From Candidatus Berkelbacteria bacterium RIFCSPLOWO2_01_FULL_50_28 (GTDB lineage: Bacteria > Patescibacteriota > UBA1384 > 2-12-FULL-50-11), in contig MEZX01000002.1 in NCBI GenBank assembly GCA_001774395.1, positions 481,524-545,523 on the forward strand: DNA of 64,000 nt, written 5' to 3'. The position numbers and the translations under genes were made by a program. This document shows positions 2,994 to 47,723 of the stretch, piece after piece. Numbering within the stretch: position 1 is the stretch's first letter; every line of letters starts with the position of its first letter. The notes beneath the pieces were generated by a model. The model searched no databases. It saw only the letters and a program-made list of their open reading frames with translations, and had not been told where the DNA came from.

Positions 2994-3027
2994 GTGACTT
3001 CAACGGGGCTGTCGTTTGTCAGTCTGG

Positions 3028-3546
3028 TCAGCGTACCGAGAAGTGGAGCTTGGTTCGACCCACTTTCCAGAGATAGACCCAAGAGATCAGGCCTGTTCTG
3101 CCAGGTCTGTCTTTCAAGAGCTCGGAACTTCCCCTGAGATCGATACTGAGCATCCGGTACGGACCGTGCACGAACCTGAACAGTGCCCCCTCGAGACAGA
3201 GGGGCTCTATGTGCTCCGCAGATGCAGCGCCGATGGTCAGAACCTGGTCTGATGGAATCTCTGGAACCGGGGCCGACGGAGCGCCTGACTGGGCCCAGCA
3301 GTATGGATAGTCGCAATGTTCGGGATGCGGCGGCCACCATAGTGTAAAGCCCACACCACTTTCACTTTGGAACGTTATGGTTCTGCTTCTCCCAAACGTA
3401 AGGCTGTCCCCGTCGTATGGCTCCGAGGCATTGTAGTAAAGGAACTTCTCGATCGCGCTTCTCCACTCGTTACCACCGAAATCAAGATATATCGGGTGCT
3501 GGAAATGGATACGCGTAATCAGGGTTTGATTTGAAAGGTTCATCAT
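3028..3546 (-). CDS. Hypothetical protein. It is paralogous to 3757..4221 and shares the C-terminal FVHGP...YLWK motif.
   Basis: The ORF-track ORF is 3028..3627. The more likely start is ATGATG at 3541-3546, which has GGGAGA five nucleotides upstream. A sigma70-like promoter TTGACC-N17-TGATAAAAT on the minus strand overlaps the annotated upstream ATG. Confidence 0.6.
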   Translation of the reverse strand: MMNLSNQTLITRIHFQHPIYLDFGGNEWRSAIEKFLYYNASEPYDGDSLTFGRSRTITFQSESGVGFTLWWPPHPEHCDYPYCWAQSGAPSAPVPEIPSDQVLTIGAASAEHIEPLCLEGALFRFVHGPYRMLSIDLRGSSELLKDRPGRTGLISWVYLWKVGRTKLHFSVR

Positions 3547-3611
3547 GGTCTCCCATGGCTCGCACACGCACAGTGTCCTTGAACAACTCAAGGAGAGGTC
3601 ATGCAGCGAAT

Positions 3612-3660
3612 GCTGGAATTTTATCACCCGTGGATAAGAAGGTCAAGAAGTTTGAGCCGG
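3612..3660 (-). promoter_or_regulatory. Sigma70-type promoter for paralog gene 1, overlapped by a 14 bp imperfect inverted repeat that could be an operator.
   Basis: -35 TTGACC at 3641-3646 (revcomp), a 17 bp spacer, and an extended -10 TGATAAAAT at ~3618-3626 (revcomp). The repeat GGTCAAGAAGTTTGA-N17-TCAAACTCTTGACC (3641-3687) overlaps the -35. Confidence 0.5.
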
Positions 3661-3698
3661 AAGTGTCACTATTCAAACTCTTGACCTTCTTTATTGAT

Positions 3699-3737
3699 AT
3701 AAAAAAATATCCCGCCGTGCCGGGTGGCAGGGCGGGG
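3699..3737 (-). terminator. Rho-independent terminator after paralog gene 2.
   Basis: The same 26 nt GC hairpin cccgccgtgccgggtggcagggcggg is preceded on the plus strand by ataaaaaaatat, which gives a U-run after the hairpin on the minus strand. Confidence 0.7.
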
Positions 3738-3756
3738 TGGTGCTGACGGGGCGGGA

Positions 3757-4221
3757 TCAGCGATACGAGGCGGCGATATGCAATGCCCGATCTTTGGCCG
3801 ACTTCCAAAGGTATAGCACCTGAATGAAACTGCCATCGCACTGACTAGGTCTCAAGTCGGGGAAGTATATGACGAGCACTATTCTTGGGCCATGAACGAA
3901 GTCGAACAGTCTCGACTTAACCCCAGTATCACTGCAGCTAGGGTGTGAGACTAGCACTTCATGCGGCTCGATAGCAGGCCTCTCATCTCCGACGCTTCCG
4001 CGAGCGCAGACGGTTCCATTGCGATGATCCCACTCGATCCTCACCTGTGTACCCAAGGCCAGACTGAAGGTGAGGTTCTGACAGTCCCTTCTAGTCTCCC
4101 TGGCGGCCGTGAGCAAGAAGTCTGTGATCGCCTCTTTCCACAATCTACCGATTGCTTTGTTGTGGCCCCCAAATGAGGCGATGTACTCGACCTCGGTGCC
4201 ATTTATGTCTTGGTACGGCAT
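3757..4221 (-). CDS. Hypothetical protein, paralog of 3028..3546.
   Basis: The ORF track gives 3757..4251. The start is probably MPYQD at 4221, with a GGAGGGA RBS and an upstream TTGACC-N17-TAGACT promoter on the minus strand (4255-4300). It shares FGG, LTF and FVHGP...VLYLWK blocks with gene 1. Confidence 0.6.
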   Translation of the reverse strand: MPYQDINGTEVEYIASFGGHNKAIGRLWKEAITDFLLTAARETRRDCQNLTFSLALGTQVRIEWDHRNGTVCARGSVGDERPAIEPHEVLVSHPSCSDTGVKSRLFDFVHGPRIVLVIYFPDLRPSQCDGSFIQVLYLWKSAKDRALHIAASYR

Positions 4222-4678
4222 GGATCCCTCCAATGCATCGCACATTTTCAACGTCGCTAAACTATTCTTGCGAGAGAAATGCTACGAGTTGAAAGTAGTC
4301 TATCCTTGATAAACTAAAAGGTCAATGATTTAGCTCCCTTTCTCTAACGAGATGTGGAGAAAAAGCTTCGGGGGTTCGTCCATAAGCTGGGCTCCAGCGT
4401 CCCGGCTAAGCCACTCGCTTTTTCGAGCTATTGATACTGAAAACCGGCGACTGCCACAGCGATTTCGTCAGAAATCGGAGCATAGCGAGATCCTTCCGGT
4501 GGCGAGGAGCCGGCTTTCTCCACCCGCCTGGGGCGAGCGTGACAGGGTAAGGGGTGTGGGGACCTAGGGACGGTCTTCGCAATTCAAGTCCCTGGTCCCC
4601 ACAAAAAAGCTGCAGGGGCCTGGCCCCTACAATAATACTTCCGACCGAGTCGACAAAAATCATTTCTAGTGAATTAGG

Positions 4679-5920
4679 CTATCGTAGTTTGCGTCTGATG
4701 AACGCGGGGACGTCGAGTTGCTCGTCTTCTGGCTCTTCAGCCTTCTTCTCAAAAGTCGAGCGTGAGCGGTCCGGTTCGTGTCTCATCGGTGGCTCGGCAC
4801 TTTCTGGCTCAACGGTAAACGGCGAAGATTGCGCGGTTGGCAACGAGCCAAAAAACGGGATCGACGACGATGGTGCTGGTGCGTTTTGCATGTTTGGACT
4901 GTGCATCGGTCGCGTTCCGAAGCCGAGCGGTTCTTCACCGAGTGCTCGCCGTTTGGCGGGGGCTTTTATCATCTCCGACTCAAACCCAGTGGCGATGACC
5001 GTCACTTTTACTTCGCCGGACATCGCTTCGTCAACCGTCACACCAAAGATGATGTTGGCCTCAGGGTGCGCCGCCTCGGTGATGGCTTTGGAAGCCTCTT
5101 CAACTTCGTACATAGTCATATCGGTGCCACCGGTGACGTTGTAGAGAATTCCAAGCGCGCCATCGATGGAGAGCTCGAGGAGCGGTGAGTCGATAGCTTG
5201 ACGAGCCGCCTCAATGGCCCGGTTTTCACCACCGGCTCGACCGATTCCCATCAGGGCTGAACCAGCATCTTTCATAATCGTTCGGACGTCAGCAAAGTCG
5301 ACGTTAATAATCGCCGGGTTGACAATGATATCGGAAATGCCTTGAACTCCCTGGCGGAGGATGTCGTCAACGATGCCAAAGGCGTCGGTAAACGAGGTTT
5401 TTTTGTCGATCACTTGCAGTAGGCGGTCGTTAGGAATGGTAATTAGGGTGTCTACTTTGTCGCGCAGATCTTCGATGCCAAGTTCGGCAACTTTCTTGCG
5501 ACGGAGGCCTTCAAAACTGAACGGTTTGGTAACCACACCAACCGTGAGCGCACCGAGTTCACGGGCGATCTGAGCTACCAACGGGGCGGCGCCTGTTCCG
5601 GTGCCGCCACCAGCGCCGCAGGTAACAAAAACCATATCGGCGCCCTTGAGCACCTCGTAAATTTCATCTTTATTTTCTTCGGCCGATTTGCGCCCAACTT
5701 CTGTGTCTGCTCCCGAACCTAAGCCCTTAGTTGTTTCTTTGCCGATCTGGACTTTTACCGGTGCCGGGTTGTTGGAAAGCGCCTGGGCATCAGTATTAAT
5801 GGCGATAAACTCTACCCCTCGAACGCGGGCAGCGATCATGCGTGCCAGAGCGTTACCACCGGAGCCGCCTATGCCACACACTTTAATTGATGCGAAAGTC
5901 TCGAGGGCTTCTTTGTTCAT
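4679..5920 (-). CDS. ftsZ: Cell division GTPase FtsZ.
   Basis: [10 protein letters not shown] tubulin signature, N-terminal [11 protein letters not shown] motif, and a Pro/Ser-rich C-terminal tail. Confidence 0.95.
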
Positions 5921-11317: not shown

Positions 11318-11866
11318 TCAGTTACGATATTTTTTGTGCAAATATTTAAATAATTCTCTGAATTCGTCTGGGTGATCGAGGTAATCGGGATATTTTGCGG
11401 CTAGAAGTGATTCCAGCTTGCGATAGTCTATATATTTAACTTCCGATACCTCTTCCTCTTGAAGTAGAAACGTGCTTGGATTAAAGTCTCCACTTACTAG
11501 GTATACATCATTGAATTCCCTATTAATGTAATCGTTGCGAACCTTTTTTTCCTGGGTGACAGTAAAGAGATGCCTGAAATCTTTATCTTCTAGATGCAGC
11601 CCCAGCTCTTCCTGAGCCTCGCGAATGGCGGCAGATATTGGTGTCTCACCGGCCGGAACGTGACCAGCGACAGATATATCCCACATATTTGGGGAAGTTT
11701 CTTTTTGAGGGGCTCGTTTTTGGAGCAACAATTCCTGTTTTGAGTTTATAATCCAAACGTGAGCCGACTTGTGCCAGAGTCCCCTTCTGTGAACTTCATC
11801 ACGATGTAAAACCTTCCCCAATTTCTGCCCACTTTCGTCTAGAACGTCAAACCTTTCGTCGCTCAT
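11318..11866 (-). CDS. NUDIX hydrolase.
   Basis: Nudix box GHVPAGETPISAAIREAQEELGL. Confidence 0.85.
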   Translation of the reverse strand: MSDERFDVLDESGQKLGKVLHRDEVHRRGLWHKSAHVWIINSKQELLLQKRAPQKETSPNMWDISVAGHVPAGETPISAAIREAQEELGLHLEDKDFRHLFTVTQEKKVRNDYINREFNDVYLVSGDFNPSTFLLQEEEVSEVKYIDYRKLESLLAAKYPDYLDHPDEFRELFKYLHKKYRN

Positions 11867-44309: not shown

Positions 44310-44382
44310 GGGCCGTTAGCTCATTTGGTAGAGCGCATCCATGGCATGGATGAGGTGACCGGTTCGATCCCGGTACGGTCCA
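44310..44382 (+). tRNA. tRNA-Ala (anticodon GGC).
   Basis: GGGCCGTTAGCTCATTTGGTAGAGC...CATCCATGGCATGGATG...CCGGTTCGATCCCGGTACGGTCCA with a G3:U70 pair. Confidence 0.8.
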
Positions 44383-44532
44383 CAACAGAAAACGAAGTGC
44401 TTCGTTGTGGGACGGGAGGGAATGAGCGTAGCGAGTATCCCGGTACGGTCCACAGAAAACCAGTCTTTCAGCTCAGTACAACACACAAATACCGCTGTGA
44501 AGCGGTACTGTGTCTCATCGAGCTCGATGAAA

Positions 44533-44742
44533 TTACATAGAAGGTGCGTCTGACTTCGACCCCTTCATGAAGGCGCTTATCAAGCTCCAAAGAGCCGCAA
44601 GGCCAACAATGATGTAGACGATCTGGGCGAAAGTATCACCCAACTTCGCGACGAAGTTCCACTCTGCGTTGATACCAATCAAACCCCAGTTTAGACCACC
44701 TACAAACAGGAAGAACCACACTACCCAATCAAATCCTTTCAT
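44533..44742 (-). CDS. DUF378 family small membrane protein.
   Basis: GGLNWGLIG motif. Confidence 0.7.
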   Translation of the reverse strand: MKGFDWVVWFFLFVGGLNWGLIGINAEWNFVAKLGDTFAQIVYIIVGLAALWSLISAFMKGSKSDAPSM

Positions 44743-44903
44743 TCCTCTCACCTCCTTCCCCAACTCATATTATTACTATGACATAATTACGTCGCCTGGC
44801 TAGGTTTTTGTCAACCCCTCAACGCCGTTCTGGGTTGACCTTGGGCATTCGAAAGGTCAAGAGCCGTTGCCCAACTGCCCCCTCAAGAGCTAACATAGGA
44901 CAG

Positions 44904-47723
44904 ATGGGTTATAACCACAAGGACATTGAGCACAGGTGGCGTCCTAAATTCGACGCTGCAAAGCTTTCAACCTGCGACCTCTCAAGCGGTGAGCCGTTCT
45001 ACTGCTTGGATATGTTCCCCTACCCTTCTGGCGATGGTCTGCATGTCGGTCATTGGCGTGGGTACACTTTAAGTGATTTTTACGTTCGTTATTGGAGTCT
45101 TAAGGGTAAAAATGTCTTGCACCCGATGGGTTTCGATGCGTTTGGCCTACCGGCTGAAAACGCGGCAATCAAAAGTAAAACTCATCCCAAGAAATTTACC
45201 GATCGTGCAATAGAGACATTTAAAACTCAGCTGAACGCTCTGGGGGCGCTTTACGACTGGAAGAAGCAAGTAAACACCAGCTCTCCTGACTATTACCGCT
45301 GGACTCAGTGGTTGTTTCTGCAGTTTTTCAAGCACGGACTGGCTGAGAAAAGACAAGCTTTAGTTAACTGGTGTCCGAAAGACCAAACAGTACTGGCCAA
45401 CGAGCAAGTCGTGGGCGGCTGTTGCGAACGCTGCGGCAGTAAGGTTACCAAAAAAAGCTTGTCGCAGTGGTATTTGAAAATAACTGATTTTACCGAGAGC
45501 CTTTTATCGGGGCTTGATACTCTTGATTGGCCAGAGCACGTCAAAGCCCTGCAGCGAAACTGGATCGGCCGATCAGACGGCGCAACCGTTAAGTTTCATA
45601 CTGAACACGGCCCGATTGAAGTTTTCACCACCAGGTTGGACACAATTTATGGGGTAAGCGCGATCCTCTTGGCGCCGGAGCATTCCTTAGTCGAAAAACT
45701 TACAAAGGCGGCGCAGGAGAAGACAGTTCAGAGCTATCTCCAGGAAACCTTATCGAAGTCAGACCTGGACCGGCAGATGGAAGATCAAACAAAAACGGGC
45801 GTTTTTACCGGATCGACTGCCATTCACCCATTTTCAAAGCAGGAGCTACCGATTTGGGTAGCTGACTACGTACTGCCGTCGTACGGTACCGGTGCGGTAA
45901 TGCTTGTGCCCGCCCACGACAAACGAGACCACGAGTTCGCCACCGCGCACAATCTGCCGATTCTGTCTGTGATTGAGCCCGAGTTTATCGACAACAAAGA
46001 GCCAAGCAACGTCAGAGAGGACCTGCCTTTTGTTGAACGAGATGGGATTGTCGCGATTGTAAAACACTGGTCCGAAGATAAATATCTGGGCTTAAAGTGG
46101 AAAAAAGTAGCCTGGGGAACTTGGATTACTGGAGGCATTGAGAAGGGCCAGTCACCCGAAGAAGCAGCAACATCTGAAATCCTTGAGGAAGTTGGTTATA
46201 ATAAACTTCGGCTAGTGAAAAATTTAGGCAGACTACACTCAAAATTCTATCACGGACCTAAGAGCGAGAATCGTTCACTGCACGGGCACTGTCTCTATTT
46301 CGAGCTCACCAGCGACGAAATGGCTCAAATTTCAGACGAAGAGGTTGGCAAACACGAACCAATTTGGCTATCAAAGGGCGAGGTGGAACAGTTCATGACA
46401 GCTGATGCTCACAAGTGGGCTTGGAGACAGCTTCAGGACGACCCCGCGCTGTATGAAGGCAGCGGTTACCTTACTAACTCCGGTAGGTACGACGGTCTAA
46501 GTAGTGATCTTGCGGCCAAAAAGATTGCTGATGATTTGGCCATCCGCGGTATCGGAGGGCAAACAGTTAGCTATCATCTCCGTGACTGGTTAGTTTCTCG
46601 CCAGCGCTACTGGGGCTGTCCAATACCGATCGTCTACGACCCCAAAGGATACCCGCACGCCGTAAAAGATGAGTATCTTCCGCTCTTGCTGCCGACCGAC
46701 GTTGATTTTCAACCTGGAGGTGAGAGTCCGATCGCTCGATCAAAGGAGTACGCCAAGAGGGCCGAAAAGTTTTACAGTAAAGGTTGGCACTTCGATACAG
46801 ACACGCTCGACACCTTTGTTGACTCGTCCTGGTACTATTTGCGTTATCTCTCCCCACGAGACGACCAACAGGCCTTCGATAAGTCCAGGGTGAAAAAATG
46901 GTTGCCGGTTGACTTATACATCGGCGGTATCGAACACGCCGTGCTTCACCTACTTTATTCAAGGTTCGTCTTTCAGTTTTTGTCTAAGTTTGGCTATGTC
47001 GACGTCAAGACAAACGAGCCGTTTAAAAAATTATTCAATATTGGCATGGTCACGCTTCATGGCGCAAAAATGAGCAAAAGTAAGGGTAACGTCATCTCGC
47101 CCGACCCGTTAATCGACGCTTACGGTACGGACGCTCTGCGCGGTTACGAGCTGTTCCTGGGACCGGTGGAGAACGATGCGGAGTGGAGCGGGAACGGTAT
47201 TAATGGAATTCACCGATTTTTAATTAAACTCGAAAAGCTCTCAACTTTAGTTCATCCAACCGCTATTGAGTCACAGCGTCAGCGATTCGACGAGTATCTC
47301 GACACTATAAATAAAATGATTCAGGATTTTCGCTTAAATACCGTCATTTCTGAAGGTATGAAACTCATCAATACACTGGGCTCAAAGGTCATCGATGCGG
47401 AAGTTTGGCGACGATTTTTGGTGACTATTTCGCCTATGTACCCGTATCTCTCGCAAGAGCTCTACGCTAGTTCATCGCAAAAGGGGCTGATTATCGAGCA
47501 AGAAAAATGGCCGGAGAAATTCCACGTTGCTCATAAAGTCCAAGTGATTAAAGTGCTTTTCAACCAAAAATTTGTTGGCTCGCTTGAAGCAGATAAGTCG
47601 TTCTCAGAAACTAATATCTTGGAGCTGATCAGTCATTCACCCGCCATAGCGGCAAAAATCAATAAAGGTAAATTTAGTCGAACCATCTACAAACCAGGTG
47701 AGCTGATCAACCTGATCCCCTAG
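44904..47723 (+). CDS. leuS: Leucyl-tRNA synthetase carrying a ~150 aa NUDIX-like insertion.
   Basis: HIGH-type PYPSGDGLHVGH and KMSKSKGN. An extra domain at ~46035-46500 has a degenerate Nudix box GGIEKGQSPEEAATSEILEEVGY. Confidence 0.9.
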   Translation: MGYNHKDIEHRWRPKFDAAKLSTCDLSSGEPFYCLDMFPYPSGDGLHVGHWRGYTLSDFYVRYWSLKGKNVLHPMGFDAFGLPAENAAIKSKTHPKKFTDRAIETFKTQLNALGALYDWKKQVNTSSPDYYRWTQWLFLQFFKHGLAEKRQALVNWCPKDQTVLANEQVVGGCCERCGSKVTKKSLSQWYLKITDFTESLLSGLDTLDWPEHVKALQRNWIGRSDGATVKFHTEHGPIEVFTTRLDTIYGVSAILLAPEHSLVEKLTKAAQEKTVQSYLQETLSKSDLDRQMEDQTKTGVFTGSTAIHPFSKQELPIWVADYVLPSYGTGAVMLVPAHDKRDHEFATAHNLPILSVIEPEFIDNKEPSNVREDLPFVERDGIVAIVKHWSEDKYLGLKWKKVAWGTWITGGIEKGQSPEEAATSEILEEVGYNKLRLVKNLGRLHSKFYHGPKSENRSLHGHCLYFELTSDEMAQISDEEVGKHEPIWLSKGEVEQFMTADAHKWAWRQLQDDPALYEGSGYLTNSGRYDGLSSDLAAKKIADDLAIRGIGGQTVSYHLRDWLVSRQRYWGCPIPIVYDPKGYPHAVKDEYLPLLLPTDVDFQPGGESPIARSKEYAKRAEKFYSKGWHFDTDTLDTFVDSSWYYLRYLSPRDDQQAFDKSRVKKWLPVDLYIGGIEHAVLHLLYSRFVFQFLSKFGYVDVKTNEPFKKLFNIGMVTLHGAKMSKSKGNVISPDPLIDAYGTDALRGYELFLGPVENDAEWSGNGINGIHRFLIKLEKLSTLVHPTAIESQRQRFDEYLDTINKMIQDFRLNTVISEGMKLINTLGSKVIDAEVWRRFLVTISPMYPYLSQELYASSSQKGLIIEQEKWPEKFHVAHKVQVIKVLFNQKFVGSLEADKSFSETNILELISHSPAIAAKINKGKFSRTIYKPGELINLIP

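What the first reader, a model, noticed from the sequence alone, without database searches (positions are those of the whole stretch)
46035..46500. NUDIX-like domain inserted into leucyl-tRNA synthetase
Between the end of the editing domain (…HDKRDHEFATAHNLPI) and the YHLRDWLVSRQRYWG catalytic segment, this LeuS carries ~150 extra residues relative to E. coli or T. thermophilus LeuS. The insert has a Nudix-fold signature, GIVAIVKHW...WGTWITGGIEKGQSPEEAATSEILEEVGY, which is G-x5-Q-x7-S-E-x2-EE-x-GY. The catalytic Glu and Arg positions are substituted, so it may bind nucleotides rather than hydrolyse them. A Nudix insertion in an aaRS is not something I know as described. It could sense nucleotide alarmones or help with editing or proofreading of mischarged substrates.
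Basis: partly seen in the sequence, partly recalled or inferred. Interest (0 to 1): 0.55.

Follow-up and report, generated by a model that had tools for sequence, protein, structure and literature searches.

The report
Nudix hydrolase domain nested inside LeuRS
The leucyl-tRNA synthetase of this Berkelbacteria (CPR) genome carries a complete Nudix hydrolase domain inside its editing domain; the same arrangement occurs in hundreds of ultra-small bacteria, appears in databases, and is not discussed in any paper I could find.

Summary

Only the first Glu (to Q) and the Arg (to S) of the Nudix box are changed. The metal-ligand glutamates E457, E460 and E461 are kept. These positions are 91-99% conserved over 296 related domains, and half of those domains have a fully canonical box.

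The feature is widespread: at least 564 hits in GTDB species genomes, and the best 80 are nearly all labelled Patescibacteria. Of these 80, 78 lie inside leuS and 2 lie just upstream of it. Some LeuRS carry three copies at other sites, or added HAD, Ham1 or alpha/beta-hydrolase domains. DPANN-type ProRS carry the same subfamily. Relatives 94% identical outside the insert lack it, so it is dispensable for LeuRS.

Best reading: an autonomous, probably active pyrophosphohydrolase tethered to the synthetase. Its substrate is unknown; ApnN by-products are my leading guess. I found no paper describing it.

The parts
44904..47723 (+). leuS coding sequence: 939 aa from the ATG at 44904, TAG stop included. 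The mechanical ORF starts at a TTG at 44808.
   Evidence: 100% identical to P0026, Berkelbacteria leucine--tRNA ligase. NCBIfam TIGR00396 leuS_bact scores 876.8 bits against a cut-off of 548.4.
44904..45578 (+). N-terminal half of the class I catalytic (Rossmann) domain. The HIGH motif HVGH is at 45042-45053.
   Evidence: Pfam PF00133/PF09334; alignment to 2v0c; motif positions.
45579..45980 (+). CP1 editing domain, N-terminal part (PF13603 positions 1-147). The Thr-rich editing motif FTTRLDT is at 45624-45644 and HDKRD is at 45915-45929.
   Evidence: These Thr and Asp positions are invariant in 87 aligned LeuRS, with or without the insert.
45981..46448 (+). Nudix domain insert (ORF aa 392-547, about 156 aa). 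It includes an N-terminal strand and linker, EFIDNKEPSNVREDLPFVER (45981-46040), that is also conserved in free-standing homologues.
46131..46199 (+). Nudix box GGIEKGQSPEEAATSEILEEVGY. Compared with GX5EX7REUXEEXGU it has E to Q (Q448) and R to S (S456). E457, E460 and E461 are retained.
   Evidence: Family statistics.
46257..46274 (+). Hairpin loop PKSENR about 17-25 residues downstream of the box, in the 'X-loop' region. It follows aromatic residues F480 and Y481. K485 and N488 are 93-98% conserved and R489 82-84%.
   Evidence: The X-loop concept comes from PMC5389931.
46338..46367 (+). Segment EEVGKHEPIW containing E512, H516 and W520, conserved in both embedded and free-standing copies. 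E512 is a candidate additional metal ligand or general base.
   Evidence: The role assigned to E512 is an inference.
46449..46571 (+). CP1 editing domain, C-terminal part (PF13603 positions 151-184), beginning ...YEGSGYLTNSG.
46572..47273 (+). C-terminal half of the catalytic domain, starting YHLRDWLVSRQRYWG. KMSKS is at 47067-47081. The leucine-specific domain of Tt LeuRS (about 578-634) is absent.
47274..47720 (+). Anticodon-binding and C-terminal domains.
   Evidence: Pfam PF08264; alignment to 2v0c.

Best explanation
The insert is a self-contained Nudix domain. It most likely still works as a metal-dependent pyrophosphohydrolase. It has been spliced into a short surface loop of the LeuRS editing (CP1) domain. 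LeuRS itself looks intact: HIGH, KMSKS, the Thr-rich editing motif and the editing Asp are all present.

I read the Nudix module as an accessory enzyme tethered to the synthetase, not as a part of the aminoacylation or editing machinery. Tethering would keep its amount and location tied to LeuRS.

My working guess for the substrate, at roughly 30%, is adenylylated by-products that synthetases make from their aminoacyl-adenylate, such as Ap4A and other ApnN. General nucleotide house-cleaning is nearly as likely.

Shown: the domain's identity, its position, its conservation, its distribution and its dispensability. Inferred: catalytic activity, the substrate, and the reason for tethering.
For: Domain identity:
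- Pfam NUDIX scores above the gathering cut-off.
- AF2 gives pLDDT 95.7 for the insert and 91.9 (pTM 0.81) for the whole protein.

Active-site retention:
- E457, E460 and E461 are kept. Across 296 domains these positions are 98%, 91% and 99% conserved.
- K485, N488, R489, E512, H516 and W520 are conserved equally in 206 embedded and 58 free-standing copies.

Selection:
- The insert is as conserved as CP1 (61% against 58% identity among the 16 closest homologues). It is more conserved than the C-terminal domain at 36%.

Autonomy:
- Free-standing proteins of about 160 aa are 50-56% identical to the insert over its whole length.

Link to synthetases:
- 78 of the best 80 genome loci lie inside leuS, and the other 2 lie immediately upstream of leuS.
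- In L086 a free Nudix gene ends 4 nt before an insert-less leuS, a Rosetta-stone pair.
- The same subfamily is inserted into archaeal-type class II ProRS whose named relatives are DPANN archaea.

Accessory rather than integral:
- LeuRS 87-94% identical outside the insert lack it, at the same leuS-nusB locus.
- Copies occur at four or more different sites in LeuRS.

Background for the substrate guess:
- Synthetases make ApnN, and Nudix enzymes (RppH/NudH, MutT1) degrade them (PMC7705103).
Against: - No activity has been measured.
- This copy is the 'Q-type' variant (E to Q, R to S). About 20% of Q-type copies also change the second core Glu, so catalysis may be weakened or altered.
- Sequence matches to characterised Nudix families are far below their cut-offs. 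The best RppH match is 21.7 bits against 116, and the best PDB sequence hits are E about 1e-5.
- From my own recollection, LeuRS is not a major Ap4A producer in E. coli.
- HAD, Ham1 and alpha/beta-hydrolase domains co-occur in related LeuRS. This fits a generic house-cleaning platform at least as well as ApnN turnover.
I could not test whether the Nudix cleft faces the editing site or the synthetic site.
Confidence: 0.55

Rival explanations
1. Passenger house-cleaning enzyme. The Nudix domain hydrolyses non-canonical or surplus nucleotides, independently of anything LeuRS does. In these reduced genomes LeuRS simply serves as a constitutively expressed scaffold for small hydrolases.
For: - Related LeuRS also carry Ham1 (an ITPase-type NTP pyrophosphatase, E=3e-58), HAD_2 and Ser_hydrolase/alpha-beta-hydrolase domains.
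- A free-standing copy lies directly after a HAD gene in L085.
- The insert is dispensable among near-identical LeuRS.
- Its position within LeuRS is variable.
- The best PDB sequence hits include the NTPase NudI and NudB.
Against: - It does not explain why the host is almost always LeuRS: 78 of 80 loci are inside leuS, and 3 of the 6 distinct stand-alone gene contexts I could read abut leuS.
- It does not explain why the only other host found is another synthetase, ProRS.
- The window already encodes a separate canonical Nudix gene at 11318-11866.
Confidence: 0.3
2. One reading: a catalytically dead nucleotide-binding or sensor domain. It binds a nucleotide or alarmone and modulates LeuRS.
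For: - This copy lacks the first Glu and the Arg of the Nudix box.
- Q-type copies form a conserved subtype, and some also have E19 to Q.
- Inactive Nudix proteins that bind Ap4A exist, for example NUDT21/CFIm25 (PMC7705103).
- In three-copy LeuRS a Q-type copy sits beside canonical copies, which suggests a different role.
Against: - E457 and E461 equivalents are 98-99% conserved, and E460 is retained here. NUDT21 and the GDP-sugar hydrolases have lost glutamates of the REUXEE core.
- Characterised Nudix proteins carry substitutions at the two altered positions (YffH, Nudt16).
- Free-standing Q-type proteins exist with no synthetase to regulate.
- Half of the CP1-site inserts are fully canonical.
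- LeuRS works without the domain in close relatives.
Confidence: 0.15
3. RNA-directed Nudix. This would be an RppH/NudC-like enzyme that removes 5' pyrophosphate or non-canonical caps (NAD, Np4N) from RNA. LeuRS or ProRS would bring it close to tRNA or to the translation machinery.
For: - The weak best NCBIfam matches are to RppH models. The canonical stand-alone member P0023 aligns to NF001936 over its full length at E=4.8e-11.
- RppH, the fungal and oomycete decapping effectors and Nudt16-like models appear among structural and Pfam neighbours.
- The conserved basic K/N/R loop could bind phosphate or RNA.
Against: - All RppH scores are far below the curated cut-offs.
- RNase P already leaves 5'-monophosphate on tRNAs (general knowledge), so there is no obvious tRNA substrate.
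- The variable insertion sites argue against a fixed geometry relative to bound tRNA.
Confidence: 0.1

Closest known systems
Nudix hydrolase superfamily (Pfam PF00293). Nearest structure: 2azw, an uncharacterised E. faecalis MutT/Nudix protein.
   Different: It is embedded in another enzyme rather than free-standing. The first Glu is Q and the Arg is S. It has its own conserved signature (W431, W436, K485, N488, R489, E512, H516, W520). It is only about 19% identical to 2azw, whose function is also unknown.
Nudix dinucleoside-polyphosphate hydrolases and RNA pyrophosphohydrolases: M. tuberculosis Rv2985/MutT1, T. thermophilus Ndx1, E. coli RppH/NudH.
   Different: It fails every curated family cut-off, for example 21.7 bits against 116. 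The structural margin over other Nudix classes is small. No activity data exist.
Cis editing domains with free-standing homologues: the ProRS INS domain and YbaK/ProXp, and the AlaRS/ThrRS editing domains and AlaX (from general knowledge).
   Same: Same evolutionary pattern. A hydrolase domain is inserted in a synthetase in some lineages and encoded as a separate gene in others, here often adjacent.
   Different: Those domains deacylate mischarged tRNA and belong to other folds. Nudix enzymes cleave pyrophosphate bonds. Nothing here indicates aminoacyl-tRNA hydrolysis.
Other synthetases with a nested unrelated enzyme domain, for example NCBIfam NF040702 'isoleucine--tRNA ligase, N-acetyltransferase domain-containing'.
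   Same: A class Ia synthetase carries an extra enzyme domain, and the arrangement is recognised as a distinct architecture (listed).
   Different: The host is different (IleRS) and so is the domain (GNAT). NCBIfam returned no dedicated model for LeuRS with Nudix.
The LysRS - Ap4A - NUDT2 axis in mammals (general knowledge; Nudix Ap4A hydrolases reviewed in PMC7705103).
   Same: A synthetase-made dinucleotide is removed by a Nudix hydrolase. This is the functional logic proposed here.
   Different: In mammals the two are separate proteins with a signalling role. Here the two would be one polypeptide, and the function is untested.

Membership tests
Nudix superfamily (PF00293) | Profile HMM match above the curated gathering score | tested here: met
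   37.8 bits on the whole protein and 42.6 bits on the insert alone, against a cut-off of 21.1.
Nudix superfamily (PF00293) | Nudix alpha/beta/alpha sandwich fold with a loop-helix-loop box | tested here: met
Nudix hydrolases (catalytic subset) | Full Nudix box GX5EX7REUXEEXGU | tested here: inconclusive
   Spacing, both Gly residues, U17, U23, E16, E19 and E20 are present. E7 is Q448 and R15 is S456. Characterised Nudix proteins carry substitutions at these two positions (PMC5389931). 141 of 296 family members are fully canonical.
Nudix hydrolases (catalytic subset) | Divalent-cation-dependent hydrolysis of a nucleoside diphosphate-X substrate | not testable with these tools
   Needs an enzyme assay.
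Bacterial-type leucyl-tRNA synthetase (TIGR00396) | Equivalog HMM above cut-off; HIGH and KMSKS motifs; CP1 editing domain with the Thr-rich motif and the conserved Asp | tested here: met
   876.8 bits against 548.4. HVGH, KMSKS, FTTRLDT and HDKRD are present. The editing Thr and Asp positions are invariant in 87 homologues. E=2e-179 to T. thermophilus LeuRS.
RppH / NudH RNA pyrophosphohydrolase and ApnA hydrolase (NCBIfam PRK00714 equivalogs) | Equivalog HMM above the curated cut-off | tested here: not met
   Best score is 21.7 bits against a cut-off of 116 for the insert. The canonical stand-alone relative P0023 reaches 42.8 bits against 118.
Nudix ApnA hydrolases | Conserved Tyr in the X-loop downstream of the box that stacks on adenine | tested here: inconclusive
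   F480 and Y481 lie 16-17 residues after the box and are F/Y in 88-96% of family members. Without a structural alignment I cannot show they are equivalent to the ApnA Tyr (PMC5389931).
MutT 8-oxo-dGTPase (TIGR00586 / PRK10776) | Equivalog HMM above cut-off | tested here: not met
   The insert gives no hit at E<=0.01. Relatives score 16-20 bits against cut-offs of 98-148.
Anti-phage defence proteins (PADLOC) | Match to a defence-system model | tested here: not met
   No hit for the insert. Relatives give only a weak hit to the candidate family PDC-S07.

The most novel reading that the evidence does not exclude
Ultra-small symbionts, both CPR bacteria and DPANN archaea, have repeatedly wired a dedicated Nudix subfamily into aminoacyl-tRNA synthetases. 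In LeuRS it occurs at four or more sites and in up to three ancient paralogous copies. It also occurs in class II ProRS. The purpose would be to destroy, in cis, nucleotide by-products of the adenylate reaction such as Ap4A/ApnN or related adenylylated species. This would be a previously unrecognised 'by-product clean-up' or alarmone-control layer built into the translation apparatus. The canonical and Q-type paralogues would have distinct substrates.
Probability: 0.25. Interest if true: 0.8.

Novelty: new variant of a known kind. Interest (0 to 1): 0.62.

Why it matters
Synthetases are among the most conserved enzymes, and new catalytic domains inside them are rare in bacteria. Here an extra hydrolase domain is a lineage-wide feature of Patescibacteria LeuRS. 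It gives at least 564 hits in species-representative genomes.

Several features make it more than a curiosity:
- Some LeuRS carry multiple ancient copies.
- Partner HAD, Ham1 and alpha/beta-hydrolase domains occur in related LeuRS.
- There is a parallel in ProRS of DPANN-type archaea.

If the domain acts on synthetase by-products, it would link nucleotide signalling or clean-up directly to translation in organisms with minimal genomes.

There is also a practical annotation effect. NCBI names several of these proteins 'class I tRNA ligase family protein'. It labels two free-standing Nudix proteins 'leuS'.

Natural insert-less variants 94% identical outside the insert provide ready-made controls for experiments.

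Tried and rejected
- **Intein or intron-encoded ORF:** rejected. The only Pfam hit in the insert is NUDIX. It is in frame in all homologues, conserved as protein, and folds as a domain continuous with CP1.
- **Second paralogous leuS copy:** rejected. Insert-bearing and insert-less genes occupy the same leuS-nusB-rnc locus.
- **Regulatory RNA or T-box upstream of leuS:** none found. Rfam finds only tRNAs. The upstream space holds tRNA-Ala(GGC) and a DUF378 gene.
- **Defence-system membership:** no PADLOC support.
- **Direct repeats at the insert junction** in the near-identical pair L087/L088: none of 6 nt or more.
- **Assigning a substrate by homology:** failed. No characterised family is matched above threshold.
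- **Measuring where the Nudix cleft sits** relative to the editing and synthetic sites: not possible, because model coordinates are not exposed.
- **AFDB50 fold search:** the library is not available.
- **Literature:** six full-text queries combining Nudix with LeuRS, synthetase, or CPR-type terms found nothing relevant. The Nudix clan review PMC5389931 never mentions tRNA or synthetase.
Full report
**What is there**

The ORF at 44808-47723 (+) is leuS. Its real start is the ATG at 44904. The 939-aa product is identical to the database entry 'leucine--tRNA ligase [Candidatus Berkelbacteria bacterium RIFCSPLOWO2_01_FULL_50_28]'. It scores 876.8 bits on NCBIfam leuS_bact against a cut-off of 548.4, and E=2e-179 against T. 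thermophilus LeuRS.

In the alignment to T. thermophilus LeuRS, about 156 residues stand where that enzyme has residues 365-375. Close insert-less LeuRS have only 4-10 residues there. The insert is ORF residues 392-547, nt 45981-46448.

Pfam's LeuRS editing-domain model is split around the insert, into positions 1-147 before it and 151-184 after it. The insert is therefore nested in a loop of CP1. It begins about 18 residues after the editing-site HDKRD motif. It is not between CP1 and the catalytic core. The finding's coordinates (46035-46500) are shifted by about 50 nt at each end.

**Is it a Nudix domain?**

Yes.
- Pfam NUDIX scores 37.8 bits on the whole protein and 42.6 bits on the insert alone, against a cut-off of 21.1.
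- AlphaFold2, using 22 homologues, gives pLDDT 95.7 for the insert. The full-length model has pLDDT 91.9 and pTM 0.81, with the insert region at 93-97.
- Foldseek returns 450 PDB matches at E<=0.001, and every listed match is a Nudix protein.

By sequence the domain belongs to no characterised Nudix family. RppH models give the best NCBIfam hits but fall far below their cut-offs. The best PDB sequence hits (NudI, 2azw, NudB, a plant Ap4A hydrolase) have E-values from about 1e-5 to 5e-4.

**Catalytic residues**

The box reads G442-x5-Q448-x7-S456-E457-I-L-E460-E461-V-G463-Y464. Only the first Glu and the Arg differ from GX5EX7REUXEEXGU. Srouji et al. 2017 describe that Glu as potentially stabilising the loop-helix-loop. 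They list characterised Nudix proteins with substitutions there (YffH, Nudt16). The box variants they list with altered core glutamates are NUDT21 (RLx2EI) and the GDP-sugar hydrolases (RLx2AE) (PMC5389931).

I aligned 296 domains of this subfamily from 292 retrieved proteins.
- E16, E19 and E20 are 98%, 91% and 99% conserved.
- Position 7 is E in 50% and Q in 34%. Position 15 is R in 51% and A/K/M/T/S in most of the rest. The two positions change together.
- 141 domains are fully canonical, and about 100 form a 'Q-type' like the window's.
- At the CP1 site, 90 copies are canonical, 54 are Q-type and 34 are other.
- Outside the box, R411, W431, W436, K485, N488, R489, E512, H516 and W520 are conserved to the same degree in 206 embedded and 58 free-standing copies.

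This is the pattern of a working active site. The Q-type does show some relaxation, since about 20% of its members also have E19 to Q. Altered or weak catalysis is therefore possible.

**Relatives and distribution**

The insert's closest relatives in the first search were free-standing proteins of about 160 aa. They are 50-56% identical over 87-99% of the insert, including its N-terminal linker. Where a source gives a name, the organisms are Parcubacteria-group bacteria.

A full-length search shows that most of the 120 best LeuRS hits carry PF00293. The named ones are Berkelbacteria, Paceibacterota, Saccharimonadales and Parcubacteria. About 30 close relatives of about 790 aa lack it.

An exhaustive profile search of 1.84 billion representatives found 122 clusters at E<=1e-30 and 339 at E<=1e-10.

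Nearly all of the best 80 are labelled Patescibacteria; a few carry other labels. Of these 80, 78 lie inside a leuS ORF and 2 are free-standing genes immediately upstream of leuS.

I could read six distinct free-standing gene contexts, and three of them abut leuS.
- In L002 (the same contig as L038), a free Q-type gene precedes a LeuRS that has a canonical insert.
- In L043, a free copy sits directly upstream of an insert-bearing leuS.
- In L086, a free canonical gene ends 4 nt before an 811-aa insert-less leuS, a Rosetta-stone pair.
- L001 and L084 have unrelated neighbours, and L085 follows a HAD hydrolase gene.

**A wider phenomenon**

I mapped LeuRS segments onto all retrieved proteins. 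Nudix copies occur at four or more sites:
- before the 'LDWPE' segment, as one or two tandem copies;
- between the catalytic N-half and CP1;
- at the CP1 loop used in the window;
- in the ZN2 region of the catalytic C-half.

Up to three copies occur per protein.

In three-copy LeuRS, copies at the same position in different proteins are 39-55% identical (46%, 55% and 39% for the three positions), while copies within one protein are 36-37% identical. The first two positions at least look like old paralogues. In seven of nine such proteins the second copy is Q-type and the other two are canonical. The window's CP1-site insert resembles that Q-type copy (51%) more than it resembles the CP1-site copy (39%).

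Related LeuRS of 1110-1558 aa also carry Ser_hydrolase/alpha-beta-hydrolase, HAD_2 or Ham1 (ITPase-type) domains.

The same Nudix subfamily is inserted between the anticodon-binding and C-terminal domains of five clusters of archaeal-type class II ProRS. The named relatives of these ProRS are Nanoarchaeota and Woesearchaeota.

**Dispensability**

With the insert columns removed, insert-bearing and insert-less LeuRS intermingle in the Berkelbacteria clade. P0058 has no insert and is 94% identical to P0029, which has one. P0060 and P0030 are 87% identical.

At the DNA level, the two genes (L087 and L088) are 94.2% identical over the 1082 nt before the insert and 86.8% over the 1240 nt after it. 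Between these stretches lie 511 nt in one and 55 nt in the other. Both genes share the same leuS-nusB context, and there are no junction repeats. The step in identity hints at recombination, but this is only a suggestion.

The editing-site Thr and Asp residues are invariant in all 87 aligned sequences. The insert itself is as conserved as CP1 (61% against 58%) and more conserved than the C-terminal domain at 36%. The domain is therefore under purifying selection where it is present, yet LeuRS does not need it.

**Interpretation**

Three results argue against a geometrically integrated role in editing or aminoacylation:
- the insertion sites vary;
- the domain is dispensable;
- free-standing equivalents have the same active-site signature.

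They favour an autonomous enzyme that benefits from being tethered to, or co-expressed with, a synthetase.

The near-exclusive association with leuS argues that the link to synthetases is functional and not random. So does the independent capture by a structurally unrelated synthetase. LeuRS and ProRS share adenylate chemistry and the tRNA 3' end. Synthetases make ApnN from the adenylate, and Nudix enzymes (RppH/NudH, MutT1) degrade ApnN (PMC7705103). The best characterised structural neighbours are ApnA hydrolases.

I therefore rank 'tethered, active pyrophosphohydrolase, possibly for ApnN-type by-products' first. The substrate part is only about 30% likely. Generic nucleotide house-cleaning comes second, supported by the Ham1 and HAD partners. 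A non-catalytic sensor and an RNA 5'-end hydrolase follow.

**Novelty**

The architecture is visible in automated annotation. PF00293 is precomputed on these LeuRS entries. I found no paper describing a Nudix domain in any synthetase. The Nudix clan review does not mention tRNA or synthetase. NCBIfam returned no dedicated model for it, although it has one for IleRS with a GNAT domain.

I class it as a new variant of a known kind: a synthetase with an accessory hydrolase domain that also has free-standing homologues.

**Limits**
- There are no activity data.
- The afdb50 library was unavailable.
- The literature search covers only open-access PMC and bioRxiv.

Noticed in passing
window 46572-47273 (LeuRS catalytic C-half): This LeuRS lacks the leucine-specific domain. 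T. thermophilus residues about 578-634 have no counterpart: query 717 aligns to Tt 578 and query 720 to Tt 635. The alignment of 87 close relatives, with or without the Nudix insert, shows no extra domain-sized segment there.
   Followed up: partly
window 44310-44383 (+) and 44533-44763 (-): The roughly 700-nt space upstream of leuS holds tRNA-Ala(GGC) and a small DUF378 membrane protein gene on the opposite strand. No T-box or other Rfam element is present. A DUF378 gene also lies upstream of leuS in the insert-less relative L088, though a 193-aa gene sits between them there.
   Followed up: yes
window 11318-11866 (-): A separate 182-aa free-standing Nudix gene with a fully canonical box (GHVPAGETPISAAIREAQEELGL; Pfam NUDIX 68.5 bits). 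It is unrelated to the LeuRS-insert subfamily, so the genome has at least two Nudix activities.
   Followed up: partly
L087 (leuS 34-2865) and L088 (leuS 3001-5376): Two metagenomic leuS genes differ by presence or absence of the whole Nudix insert. They are 94.2% identical in DNA before it and 86.8% after it. The step in identity at the insert suggests exchange by recombination.
   Followed up: partly
P0093, P0094, P0104, P0105, P0110, P0126, P0133, P0138, P0146; loci L013, L014: LeuRS of 1140-1558 aa with three Nudix copies (two in tandem before the 'LDWPE' segment, one in CP1). Some also carry a HAD_2 domain in the ZN2 region or a Ser_hydrolase domain before CP1. Copies at the first two positions are clearly more similar across proteins than copies within one protein.
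   Followed up: partly
P0115, P0189: LeuRS carrying a Ham1 (ITPase-type NTP pyrophosphatase) domain in addition to Nudix. In P0189 it is a full-length Ham1 (E=3e-58) between the catalytic and anticodon-binding domains.
   Followed up: no
P0274, P0293-P0296: Archaeal-type class II prolyl-tRNA synthetases carry the same Nudix subfamily between the anticodon-binding and C-terminal domains. Their named relatives are Nanoarchaeota and Woesearchaeota. About 115 close ProRS relatives lack it.
   Followed up: partly
L002 6001-6492 and 10698-11201; L086 4001-4510; L085 3400-4486: Free-standing copies sit directly upstream of leuS in L002 and L086. L002 also has a further, different Nudix gene between nusB and rnc. 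In L085 the free copy follows a HAD_2 gene by 4 nt, and a GIY-YIG gene lies nearby. In the P0012 context a LAGLIDADG gene is adjacent, which hints at a variable or mobile neighbourhood.
   Followed up: no
P0006, P0008 (157 aa); P0030, P0042, P0117, P0130, P0137: Annotation side-effects. Two free-standing Nudix proteins are named 'leuS' by NCBI. Several insert-bearing LeuRS are named only 'class I tRNA ligase family protein'.
   Followed up: no
L025, L033, L066, L072: A few genome bins holding insert-bearing leuS are labelled Gammaproteobacteria, Bdellovibrionales or Woesearchaeota. Given the sequence similarity to Patescibacteria LeuRS, these are probably mis-binned contigs or wrong labels, but horizontal transfer was not excluded.
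   Followed up: no
P0024 (243-aa fragment): A LeuRS fragment in which the Nudix domain follows directly after the 'GAEIDFTVK' strand at the entry to CP1, which is a different insertion site. Its end looks frameshifted.
   Followed up: no
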